From the IMG/VR virus record IMGVR_UViG_2703718775_000013: a stretch of DNA of 64,000 nucleotides. One strand, written 5' to 3'. Made by a program: the position numbers. The stretch comes from a virus. Lineage: Duplodnaviria > Heunggongvirae > Uroviricota > Caudoviricetes. Shown one piece after another: positions 1-3,000 of the stretch (its first letter is position 1; every line of letters begins with the position of its first letter).

Positions 1-3000
1 CACTAAATCAGTAAGTTGGCAGCATCACCATCATTTATAATTGCTTTTAGGTTCGTGTCGCTTAAAGAATAGCCTAATATCGCAACTGTATTTTCATGCA
101 GCATCGTGCTAAGTTTTCGAGAGAAATAAGTGTCGGAGTTTATAAACCTAAAATAGTCTTCTGATGTAACAATCATGTTTTGTGGAGAGTCAATAGAACC
201 ATGGACATGATATATTTTAACTTTGGAGGGATATTTAGGAATAGGTAAGCCTGGGGTAATAGACTGAACCTCCTCATCTCCAGTTAAGTATTCAGCTAAC
301 TTGTCATAATTCGTTGTAATGACACGAAATGTTCTTTTTTGAAAAAAATCCTTTATATTTGATATATCTTCGCCAAGTTGTATTGGAGATATGATGTCAA
401 CAATTTCATCATAAATCGACTTGCCTTCAATGTTGAGCTTCAAAGATAGTATCTGTGCGGCTTCTTCAAGACTCAGTGCTGGTGGTTTATCATCAGGGAA
501 TAACGTGTCTTCCAACTGTTTGGCGTTGTGAACTTTGCTGCAAACTTTTTTTAATAGTTCTTTCCACGTTGGTGCTTCGCCGTTCGAGACTGCCTTTGAA
601 AAGCCAGTCCCGGTAAATAGACAAAGCCTGCTTGTAGCGGCAGCGTATGCTAACTCAACATATTCGCTCATTACTTACTCCATTTACTTATAGTTCTATG
701 GAGAAGTATACCCTAATGCATTGACGTTTATAGATAATTTCCTTTTCCTGTTAATTCCCCTTTCGGCACCCGTTTTTGTGCCAGCGTTTGGGTTCCGCGA
801 ATTATGTTAATCAGAGGGCTTAGTAACGATGGCTCCTGGCGGGCCTCAACTTCTCCAGCCATTGCCCTGATGTAGTCGGCGCTGGCAACGTTGTTGTATT
901 CCGTCGCAAAGCAACATAGTAACGTCAGAACATGTTCTGTCGTTATTTCGCTCCAGTTGATGTTGAAAAATTCATCGCCTTTTTTATCGTGTTCGGAATC
1001 GAAGATGCTTTGGTGAAGGATGTATTTGCCGGATTCCTTGCGCGGTAACTTGATCGCTTTCTGGCGTTCCAATTCCTTGTAAATCTGCATTGCTTCAATC
1101 AGTACCGGTCTGCCGTTCATGAAGGGATCACGCAACCTTACACGCTGGCCAACTCGACCGGTAATAAAGCTGTTTTCCTCTTCCACCAGCACGATAAAAC
1201 CCTTTTCCTCTTTTTCTCGCAATTCGCGCAGCAGCTGGAGTTCCATATCGCGGCGGCGTTCAGGGTAGCTGGTCCGCTCAGCCATGATCAGCTCATTGTT
1301 GATCCATGCAGCAGTCATTGACGCCGGTTTGCCGACGCTCATTGAAACAACGCATATTTTCTTATCCATAGCGCCCCTACAAAAAAGAAAAGCCACCAGC
1401 GGCGGCTTAGCAATACAACTGAAGGTAGCGCCCGGTACTCAGACTGTGCCGTCCATGGAATATTTGAAAAGGGATCCATCCGTACCGGGCGTGTGATGAT
1501 TCTGACTGAAGTCACTTGTCAGTTGTCAATCATTTATCATTAAAAATAATATATTTATTAGTGCATGATGTTTGCCATCTCATAGGCATCAGCCAGTAAC
1601 TCCATCTCTGACTTGTTCAGCAAGGTGAATTCTTTCTTGCCTCCAACCACACCATCGGCATGAACAGGGACCAGCCATGGGTATTTTTCTCTTACTTCAG
1701 CCGGAGCTGCATGCTGGTGGTGCCATCTACAAAGTGGCAATTGCTTTTTATGACAACCCGGCGCGGTACGACCGGCGATATGGTGCAGAGACACCTCATT
1801 AGATATTACTCCATGCATATAGCAGGCAATGCAGGGGAGAGCGCCAAGAGCATTGGCGATGCGCCGTTCCTCCGCCGTTGGTGTTCTCCCCTTCAAGCCA
1901 CGAGATTTTATTTTTACCGCGCTTTTCCGCGTTTTGCTGGCTGGTGGGCGCTCTTTCTGTTTAGCGATACGGCGGTCGATAGAATCCCGCATTTTCTGAT
2001 ATTGCGATTCTCTCCAGGCGGGGTCAGCCAACTTTTCCCGTTGCCGAGCGATCGCTCGTTCTCTGGCTGCCTTCTGCCACTCGCGGCGCTGTTCAAGTTT
2101 TTGTTCGATTGTTTTCATATGGCAAAAAAAAGGCGGCCTAATGGCCGCCAATGATGTCAAGGAGTTAAGTAATGGCAACGTCTTCGTAGTTGACAAAAAC
2201 TGCGGCTCAATTATAGCAATCAATTAGAGCAATGGTAGATATTTTGTTAATCGAGAATCACATTTTTTCACTTCAGTACCTGTGTGCTATACTCTTTCTT
2301 GATTGATTGGATGCGGAATACAAACCCGCTCTTTTGTGCAGCCTGGCTCCTTGCCAGGCTTTTTTATTTCATCATGGAAGCTGTTAACGCTTTGGATCTT
2401 GCTGAACTGATTGAAAGGGCATTGTTTACCTTACCCAGGAGTTCGCCAAATTCCGCCATCACTCTAGTAAGCCCTCGCCGCGCTTCCTCCTCCGTTGCAT
2501 TCATCACAAAATGTTCAGCACTCCGCATGCTTTTAACGGGGAACGCAACAGATATCGAGTCGATATCAGGCATCCTATCGCTCAATTTTACGGTGACAAT
2601 GACAGATGGTGACTGAATTTGAGAGCTTACAGACAGCACCACATATTTTCCGTCTATTTTGAAATCCTTCCGCATGTGTCACCATAAATATCAAATAATT
2701 AGAGCAATCAAGTAAAAATGAACGGCTAATCGCCATCTTCCAGCAGGCGCACCATTGCCCCCGTTTCACTATCCAGGTTACGAATGTAGTTCATGACAAT
2801 ATTTACGTTGGTCCAGCCACCAGCTTGCATGATCTCCGGTATTGAAACTCCGGCGCGGGCCATATCTCGCGCGGCACCGACACGGGCACTATGTCCAGAC
2901 CAGGCCAGGTATCGCTGACCAGAGTCATCTTTTGCCCCGTAAATCAATCGGTGAGTTGCTTCAAAAATCCCTTCCAGGGCGCGAGTTGATAGCTGGCTGG

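What the first reader, a model, noticed from the sequence alone, without database searches (positions are those of the whole stretch)
3..1396. SIR2-domain defence-type gene sits where P1 carries its type III res-mod system
In P1 as I remember it the order is cre-cra-ref-mat-res-mod. Here cre, ref and a mat-sized gene are present with P1-like spacing, but the next gene (671 down to base 3 and beyond) opens with a SIR2_2 NADase domain (LFTGTGFS, TTNYDKL, YHVHGS) like that of ThsA and DSR anti-phage proteins. The gap to mat is 56 bp rather than the near-abutting mat-res junction. This suggests the restriction cassette was swapped for a different defence module. Only the N-terminus is in the window, so the type (Thoeris ThsA, DSR, SIR2-HerA or other) cannot be assigned.
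Basis: partly seen in the sequence, partly recalled or inferred. Interest (0 to 1): 0.7.

Follow-up and report, generated by a model that had tools for sequence, protein, structure and literature searches.

The report
IS1-broken SIR2 gene in P1 plasmid
A P1-like phage-plasmid carries, where phage P1 has its restriction enzyme genes, a single SIR2-type gene resembling NAD-destroying anti-phage proteins, but in this strain an IS1 insertion element has cut it in half, so it is a dead copy of an untested defence candidate.

The parts
1..29 (-). Terminal inverted repeat of IS1 (GGTGATGCTGCCAACTTACTGATTTAGTG). It lies at the very start of the source contig and supplies the last 8 codons (GDAANLLI) and the TAG stop (5..3) of the truncated ORF.
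   Evidence: 100% match to the annotated 'terminal IR of IS1' in P1 records AF234172/AF234173. It occurs once in the window, with 0 expected by chance. Window base 1 is contig base 1.
3..671 (-). Truncated SIR2_2 ORF as it now reads: 222 codons plus a stop. It consists of 214 native codons followed by 8 IS1-derived codons.
   Evidence: ORF list and sequence. Pfam SIR2_2 matches residues 117-214 to profile positions 3-104 of 141 only.
30..671 (-). Native 5' part of the SIR2 gene, codons 1-214 of 435. It contains the G-x-G NAD motif (G21/G23), N121 (311-309), D123 (305-303) and H155/H157 (209-201). It lacks the last Rossmann strands and the whole C-terminal helical domain.
   Evidence: 100% identical to NZ_CP027575.1 up to base 30, then diverges. 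The model's secondary structure shows strands 228-231 and 250-253 and helices 258-431 lying beyond the break.
672..727 (-). 56-bp mat-SIR2 spacer with a GGAG Shine-Dalgarno at 681-678. It is part of the cargo cassette, whose left edge is the mat stop codon.
   Evidence: Sequence. P1 and the other cargo variants lose similarity exactly at the mat stop. No sigma-70-like promoter was predicted in the spacer.
728..1396 (-). mat (maturation control), a P1 backbone gene. The RefSeq-style start at 1369 gives 213 aa.
   Evidence: 93-95% identical to P1 mat. phrog_1837 matches full length. Annotated as maturation control protein in relatives.
1558..2118 (-). ref (RecA-dependent nuclease), P1 backbone.
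   Evidence: Pfam RecA_dep_nuc, 172 bits. Coordinates mapped from L002 7643-8203.
2364..2675 (-). c8 (putative lysogeny establishment), P1 backbone.
   Evidence: Matches P1 c8 within the 95% identity block.
2726..3757 (-). cre recombinase, P1 backbone.
   Evidence: Pfam Phage_integrase. 95% identical to P1 cre.

Best explanation
Window 1-671 is the 5' remnant of a single-gene SIR2 cargo module of a P1-like phage-plasmid, cut by an IS1 insertion after codon 214. Shown: the contig starts in the IS1 end. The intact gene (435 aa) occupies the mat-lxc slot where P1 has EcoP1I res/mod. That slot is exchanged as a cassette with sharp edges at the two stop codons. Inferred for the intact family: it is a stand-alone, abortive-infection-type anti-phage NADase. 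The N-terminal SIR2 domain (G-x-G, N121, D123, H157) would hydrolyse NAD+ once activated, probably after oligomerising into filaments as its closest structural relatives do. The fast-evolving, family-specific helical C-terminal domain would keep it off and sense a phage cue. For this copy: the truncation removes Pfam positions 105-141 of the SIR2 fold and the whole C-terminal domain, so it should be inactive. Confidence splits as about 0.95 for the anatomy (IS1 break, slot, cassette) and about 0.6 for the defence-NADase function of the intact family.
Against: No experiment on this family was found. No PADLOC or NCBIfam model matches it full length. A DefenseFinder survey of about 1,600 P1/D6 elements does not mention SIR2. 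No promoter-like site lies in the spacer, so it may be co-transcribed with mat, which in P1 is under C1 and late-promoter control. That would be odd for a gene protecting lysogens. The C-domain is never found on other effectors, so there is none of the modular shuffling typical of defence sensors. Half of the alternative cargoes (GNAT, YaaC, EAL) match no defence model. The same allele was inactivated at least twice, by IS1 here and by an 827-bp deletion in L026. This could mean it is costly, or that it is dispensable. The far side of the IS1 was not seen.
Confidence: 0.7

Rival explanations
1. One reading: an intact SIR2 defence gene whose C-terminus simply lies beyond the window edge.
For: Only the N-terminal half is in the window, and homologues are 435 aa.
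Against: There is an in-frame stop at 5..3. The last 29 bases are an exact IS1 end. Identity to the intact gene stops at base 30. The contig itself begins at window base 1.
Confidence: 0.02
2. The SIR2-IS1 junction is an assembly artefact and the gene is intact in the living strain.
For: IS1 is a multi-copy repeat at which short-read assemblies break, and the contig ends there.
Against: The switch occurs exactly at the first base of the IS1 inverted repeat. That is the signature of a real transposition junction, not of a random chimeric join. Two records carry the same 222-aa product.
Confidence: 0.05
3. It is a housekeeping CobB-type NAD-dependent protein deacylase, as the RefSeq product name suggests.
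For: RefSeq names it 'SIR2 family NAD-dependent protein deacylase'. Deacetylase sirtuins are still detectable structural relatives.
Confidence: 0.03
4. It is the effector of a known multi-gene SIR2 system (Thoeris ThsA, Lamassu LmuA, Kongming KomC or SIR2-HerA) whose partners are encoded elsewhere.
For: The SIR2 domain matches ThsA, LmuA and KomC models and structures. According, most P1 elements carry the anti-Thoeris gene Tad2, so Thoeris-type signalling is relevant to P1 biology.
Against: Matches cover only the SIR2 domain: ThsA profile 107-232 of 478, LmuA 14-224 of 433. The C-domain is all-helical with no SLOG hit. No TIR, HerA, SMC or KomA/B gene is adjacent in any of five contexts.
Confidence: 0.08
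5. The intact protein serves the phage-plasmid itself and not host defence. Examples would be an NAD-dependent ADP-ribosyltransferase or NAD-level modulator acting during P1 lytic growth, exclusion of competing P1-like elements, or a plasmid-addiction function.
For: It shares strand and a short spacer with mat and has no predicted promoter of its own. In P1, mat has a C1 operator and a late promoter. Some SIR2 proteins (SirTM) are ADP-ribosyltransferases, although they are weaker structural hits.
Against: Homologues are solitary genes in unrelated prophage and chromosomal islet contexts with no mat. The closest structures are all host-defence NADases. Only about 8% of P1-like plasmids carry it, so it is not needed for the P1 life cycle.
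Confidence: 0.12

Closest known systems
KomC, the SIR2 NADase of the Kongming system (PDB 9v0g, 8zsf)
   Different: KomC is a SIR2-only protein of 264-278 aa that works with KomA/KomB and a nucleotide signal. The protein here has an extra 180-aa helical domain and no partner genes.
ThsA of type I Thoeris (PDB 7uxt, 6lhx, 8bto)
   Different: The ThsA C-terminus is a SLOG/STALD domain that binds gcADPR made by ThsB. Here the C-terminus is an unrelated all-helical domain, the ThsA models match only profile positions 107-232 of 478, and no TIR gene is nearby.
DSR2 / DSR1 defence-associated sirtuins
   Same: They are single-gene systems with an N-terminal SIR2 NADase plus a helical-repeat region that senses a phage protein directly. 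DSR2 gives the top Foldseek hits, with TM 0.7 on the SIR2 domain. This is the closest analogy for how the protein may work.
   Different: DSR proteins are about 1,000-1,250 aa. The NCBIfam Dsr1 and Dsr2 models score 26 and 23 bits against cutoffs of 1400. The C-domain here is only 180 aa and does not superpose on DSR2 beyond the SIR2 domain.
PADLOC candidate PDC-S25
   Same: It is the best-scoring defence model (E 2e-27) and is a single-gene SIR2 candidate.
   Different: Only profile positions 128-286 of 517 align, so neither the N- nor the C-terminal parts of that model are present. PDC-S25 is itself an unvalidated candidate.
P2 and P4 defence hotspots (Rousset et al. 2022, PMC9122126)
   Same: They are a fixed slot between conserved genes of a temperate element, filled by alternative, mostly single- or two-gene cargoes that include SIR2-domain proteins and RM systems. 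The P1 mat-lxc slot behaves the same way.
   Different: In P2/P4 many cargoes were shown to block phages. For the P1 slot only the type III RM is established. Three of the seven sampled cargo types resemble PADLOC candidates and three match nothing.
EcoP1I res/mod of phage P1
   Same: It occupies the same slot, bounded by the mat and lxc stop codons.
   Different: It is a two-gene type III restriction-modification system on the opposite strand and is unrelated in sequence and mechanism.

Membership tests
Pfam SIR2_2 (PF13289) | Domain score above the gathering threshold | tested here: met
   79.9 bits for the truncated product and 83.6 bits for the intact protein, against a cutoff of 24.5. The truncated copy covers only profile positions 3-104 of 141.
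Defence-type SIR2 NADases (KomC/ThsA/DSR/Avs5 clade) | Fold closer to defence NADases than to deacetylase sirtuins | tested here: met
Defence-type SIR2 NADases (KomC/ThsA/DSR/Avs5 clade) | Conserved catalytic Asn and His | tested here: met
   N121, D123, H155 and H157 are invariant in 40 family members. H157 aligns with KomC H146. All lie upstream of the IS1 break.
Defence-type SIR2 NADases (KomC/ThsA/DSR/Avs5 clade) | NAD+ hydrolysis and phage protection | not testable with these tools
   This needs cloning, phage challenge and NAD+ measurement. No published test was found.
Thoeris ThsA | C-terminal SLOG/STALD ligand-binding domain | tested here: not met
   The ThsA models align only to their SIR2 part (107-232 of 478). 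Pfam finds no C-terminal domain, and the model is all-helical from 258 to 435.
Thoeris ThsA | Adjacent ThsB (TIR) gene | tested here: not met
   The neighbours are mat and lxc, and no TIR gene appears in any context examined.
DSR1 / DSR2 | Full-length match to the >1,000-aa equivalog models | tested here: not met
   NCBIfam Dsr1 scores 25.8 bits and Dsr2 23 bits against cutoffs of 1400. The protein is 435 aa.
SIR2-HerA (Nezha) | Adjacent HerA ATPase | tested here: not met
Lamassu LmuA (SIR2 type) | Full-length LmuA match and LmuB (SMC) / LmuC partners | tested here: not met
   The LmuA profile aligns at positions 14-224 of 433 only. No SMC-like neighbour is present.
Avs5 (SIR2-STAND) | Central STAND NTPase domain | tested here: not met
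   No NTPase domain was found in Pfam, and the protein is 435 aa against about 770-830 aa for Avs5.
PADLOC PDC-S25 | Match over most of the profile | tested here: not met
   Only positions 128-286 of 517 are covered.
CobB-type sirtuin deacylase | Classical SIR2 domain with a Cys4 zinc module | tested here: not met
   No classical SIR2 Pfam hit appears at E<=1. The sequence has no CxxC pairs. Structural similarity is weaker.
phrog_7567 (phage protein family, unknown function) | End-to-end profile match | tested here: met
   The intact homologue aligns 1-434 to profile 1-434 of 434, E 2e-229. The window copy holds only the first 214 residues.
IS1 insertion | Exact terminal inverted repeat at the junction | tested here: met
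   29 of 29 bases are identical to the annotated IS1 terminal IR of P1, and the join falls at the first IR base.
IS1 insertion | insA/insB genes, second IR and a 9-bp target duplication flanking the other half of the gene | not testable with these tools
   The contig ends inside the IR. The far end of the 97-kb contig could not be fetched.
P1-like phage-plasmid (Punavirus backbone) | Colinear P1 core genes | tested here: met
   The window is 95% identical to P1 cre-mat. The whole window is colinear with the P1-like plasmid NZ_CP027575.1, with 55.6 of 64 kb aligned.

The most novel reading that the evidence does not exclude
The 435-aa 'SIR2 + private helical domain' family (phrog_7567) is an unrecognised stand-alone anti-phage NADase, a miniature DSR-like sensor-effector. 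In addition, the mat-lxc slot of P1-like phage-plasmids is a defence hotspot comparable to those of P2 and P4, and its other cargoes (GNAT, YaaC+ORF, DUF2971, PIN, EAL) include further undescribed systems. The repeated inactivation of the SIR2 allele (IS1 here, a deletion elsewhere) would then reflect the cost of carrying a suicide enzyme.
Probability: 0.45. Interest if true: 0.55.

Novelty: new variant of a known kind. Interest (0 to 1): 0.3.

Why it matters
If the intact family is a working defence gene, it adds a compact single-protein SIR2 system whose sensor domain is unrelated to those of ThsA, DSR and Avs5. It would also mark the P1 mat-lxc slot, present in roughly 700 sequenced plasmids, as a ready-made catalogue of candidate immunity genes carried by elements that also spread antibiotic resistance. 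For this particular window the practical message is narrower. The gene is a pseudogene, automated annotation would call it a 222-aa 'SIR2 family protein', and it should not be counted as a functional defence system in this strain.

Tried and rejected
(1) Extending the contig: the exact-product look-up showed that window base 1 is contig base 1, so nothing lies upstream. (2) Finding the other half in the window: the SIR2 3' half, lxc, ulx and darB are absent from all 64 kb. (3) Contig-length argument: the unseen 33,216 bp is close to the 33,775 bp left in the reference circle. This supports 'whole plasmid opened at IS1'. With more than 1 kb of indel noise it cannot separate a simple insertion from an IS1-adjacent deletion, so that claim was dropped. 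(4) Searching with the C-terminal 231 aa to catch a partial ORF from the far contig end found no such record. (5) P0219, a 160-aa C-terminal fragment at a contig start, was considered as another disruption. It was rejected because no IS end is present and it is an ordinary assembly break. (6) The hypothesis that the C-domain is a modular sensor shared with other effectors was rejected. The profile search finds it only in this architecture. (7) A promoter in the mat-SIR2 spacer: none was predicted. (8) Literature searches for P1-like + SIR2, PDC-S25 and stand-alone Sir2 systems found nothing on this family. The Sir2 homologue in Vassallo et al. and the V. cholerae system are HerA-type two-gene systems. 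(9) Regions of the window that differ from the closest plasmid hold only Ead/Ea22-like, DUF551 and an OB-fold ORF, and nothing linked to this finding.

Full report
OBSERVATION. On the minus strand an ORF starts at ATG 671-669, preceded by a GGAG at 681-678. Pfam places it in SIR2_2 at 79.9 bits against a cutoff of 24.5. The PADLOC defence models that match are PDC-S25, ThsA, LmuA and Dsr1. The upstream gene (728-1396) is mat and the spacer is 56 bp. Window 734-3760 is 95% identical to P1 coordinates 433-3462 (cre, c8, ref, mat), and that similarity ends at the mat stop codon. So the core observation is real and far beyond chance.

The ORF does not run off the window. It ends in TAG at 5..3 after 222 codons. 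The last 29 bases on that strand, GGTGATGCTGCCAACTTACTGATTTAGTG, are 100% identical to the feature annotated 'terminal IR of IS1' in the P1 GenBank records, and they occur once in the window against 0 expected. Aligned with an intact 100%-identical copy, the window matches base for base down to base 30 (codon 214...AIIND) and then switches to the IS1 end. The IS1 end contributes GDAANLLI and the stop. An exact-sequence look-up of the 222-aa product found it on contig LOCZ01000293.1 of assembly GCA_001607025.1 (97,216 bp), with the gene at contig positions 3-671. The window therefore starts at contig base 1, and the contig itself starts inside IS1. The rest of the gene, lxc, ulx and darB are nowhere in the 64 kb. 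The window is colinear with the intact plasmid NZ_CP027575.1 (base 30 to 80,873; base 64,000 to 47,097). The unseen 33.2 kb of the contig is about what remains of that 96-kb circle. The contig is therefore probably the whole plasmid opened at a collapsed IS1 copy. I could not see the far end, so a simple insertion and an IS1-adjacent deletion remain undistinguished.

THE LOCUS IN INTACT RELATIVES. About 57 PLSDB plasmids and 62 complete E. coli genomes carry at least 80% of the segment. Many of the 100%-identical copies come from O111, O103 and related STEC strains. No record in the phage collection has it at megablast level. In these plasmids the order is ...cre, c8, ref, mat > SIR2 (1,308 bp, 435 aa) > < lxc < ulx < darB. 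Reference P1 has mat > < res < mod < lxc < ulx < darB. Its res and mod lie on the opposite strand, with 75 bp between the mat and res stop codons. Sampling plasmids by where their mat similarity ends showed that the slot is multi-allelic. It holds EcoP1I res/mod, this SIR2 (at least two lineages, one only 64%/51% identical in the two domains), a GNAT acetyltransferase, a YaaC-family protein plus a small ORF, a DUF2971 protein, a PIN-domain protein, or an EAL-domain protein. All variants lose and regain similarity at the same two points. The left point is the mat stop codon (or about 120 bp inside mat for two variants) and the right point is the lxc stop codon. mat occurs in 696 plasmids, type III res in 108 and this SIR2 in 57. 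The SIR2 segment is 33-37% GC against 46-52% for the backbone. This is cassette exchange by recombination in conserved flanks, like the P2 and P4 hotspots.

CONTEXT ELSEWHERE. In E. coli chromosomes the 59%-identical homologue is a solitary gene just beyond the integrase at the end of a lambdoid prophage near narP/ccm. In Pantoea it follows an HD/HD_assoc (dGTPase-like) gene. In Stutzerimonas it lies between a NERD-UvrD helicase and a DUF2971 protein, the domain that fills the P1 slot in other plasmids. In Pseudoalteromonas the neighbours are uncharacterised. No neighbour is conserved across these contexts, so this is a one-gene module that travels with mobile elements and small defence-like islets.

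MECHANISM. Shown: the anatomy of the IS1 break, the slot, the cassette boundaries, the fold, the conserved catalytic residues, and the lack of partner genes. Inferred: the intact protein is a stand-alone abortive-infection NADase. By analogy with DSR2, the variable helical domain would sense a phage component and release the SIR2 domain. Most of the closest structural relatives (KomC, Avs5, FAM118B and B. cereus ThsA) were solved as activated filaments, so the SIR2 domain would probably act as an oligomer or filament and deplete NAD+. In this window the break after codon 214 falls in helix 206-219. It removes strands 228-231 and 250-253 (Pfam positions 105-141) and the entire C-domain, so the product should be inactive. 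A second, independent inactivation of the same allele exists. In four contigs an 827-bp deletion fuses Mat residues 1-81 in frame to SIR2 residue 125 onward, deleting the G-x-G motif and N121/D123.

CAVEATS. No paper in the searchable library tests this family or mentions SIR2 in P1-like elements. A DefenseFinder screen of about 1,600 P1/D6 elements lists type III RM, dGTPase, PrrC and CapRel but not SIR2. That fits the failed membership tests here. No promoter-like site lies in the 56-bp spacer. If the gene depends on the mat promoters, which in P1 are C1-repressed or late, it might not be expressed in lysogens. This keeps open a phage-serving role. Of the alternative cargoes, DUF2971 and PIN resemble the PADLOC candidates PDC-S31 and PDC-S34, while GNAT, YaaC and EAL match nothing. 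'Defence hotspot' is therefore plausible but not established.

COMPARISON AND VERDICT. The protein works most like DSR2, as a single-gene SIR2 plus helical sensor. Its catalytic domain is most like KomC and ThsA. It fails the defining features of ThsA (SLOG domain, ThsB), DSR1/2 (length, equivalog score), SIR2-HerA, Lamassu, Avs5, Kongming and PDC-S25, and it is not a CobB-type deacylase. I file it as a new variant of a known kind, the SIR2 NADase defence proteins. It is catalogued as phrog_7567 and as 'SIR2 family protein' but is uncharacterised. Its details about P1 were off, and it missed that this copy is broken by IS1. Interest is modest at 0.3: a specialist would not be surprised by a SIR2 cargo gene on a phage-plasmid, and this copy is a pseudogene. 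The more useful by-product is the description of the mat-lxc slot as a compact, sharply bounded cargo site worth screening.

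Noticed in passing
window 3754-4149 (-): A 131-aa ORF lies between cra (4169-4390) and cre and overlaps the cre start by 4 nt. It is absent from reference P1, whose homology ends at 3760 and where cra abuts cre. It is present in NZ_CP027575.1 as WP_000481733.1. It has no Pfam family. This may be a second small variable site next to cre.
   Followed up: partly
L026 3211-4389 (Logan SRR29917079 contig): This is an in-frame Mat(1-81)-SIR2(125-435) fusion made by an 827-bp deletion of the same SIR2 allele (P0005, 4 contigs). 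It is an independent inactivation that removes the NAD-binding G-x-G motif and the catalytic Asn/Asp.
   Followed up: yes
L010-L015 (mat-lxc slot of other P1-like plasmids): The alternative cargoes in the same slot are GNAT acetyltransferase (202 aa), YaaC-family protein + 169-aa ORF, DUF2971 (336 aa, resembles PADLOC PDC-S31), PIN-domain protein (316 aa, partial PDC-S34 match), and EAL-domain protein with about 1 kb of unannotated DNA. None has a tested function.
   Followed up: partly
L023/L024 5110-9237 (Stutzerimonas): A SIR2 family member sits between a NERD-UvrD helicase (29-bp gap) and a DUF2971 protein. Two of the cargo types seen in the P1 slot therefore occur side by side in a chromosomal islet.
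   Followed up: no
window 13650-21000, 39283-40304 and 59769-61057: These segments have no match in the closest intact plasmid NZ_CP027575.1. They hold Ead/Ea22-like, DUF551 and uncharacterised small ORFs, and a 270-aa tRNA_anti-like (OB-fold) protein at 60106-60918. They look like the usual variable early-region content.
   Followed up: partly
L009 6726-8030 (pMCR_SCKP-LL83, Klebsiella pneumoniae): An mcr-carrying P1-like plasmid has a second lineage of the same SIR2 family in the slot. It is only 64% (SIR2 domain) and 51% (C-domain) identical to the allele in this window, so the family entered or diversified in this slot more than once.
   Followed up: partly
window 57015-59205: Second and third copies of icd/ant-like antirepressor sequence, 65-81% identical to the copy near c1. 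This is consistent with the multiple immunity regions of P1-like elements.
   Followed up: no
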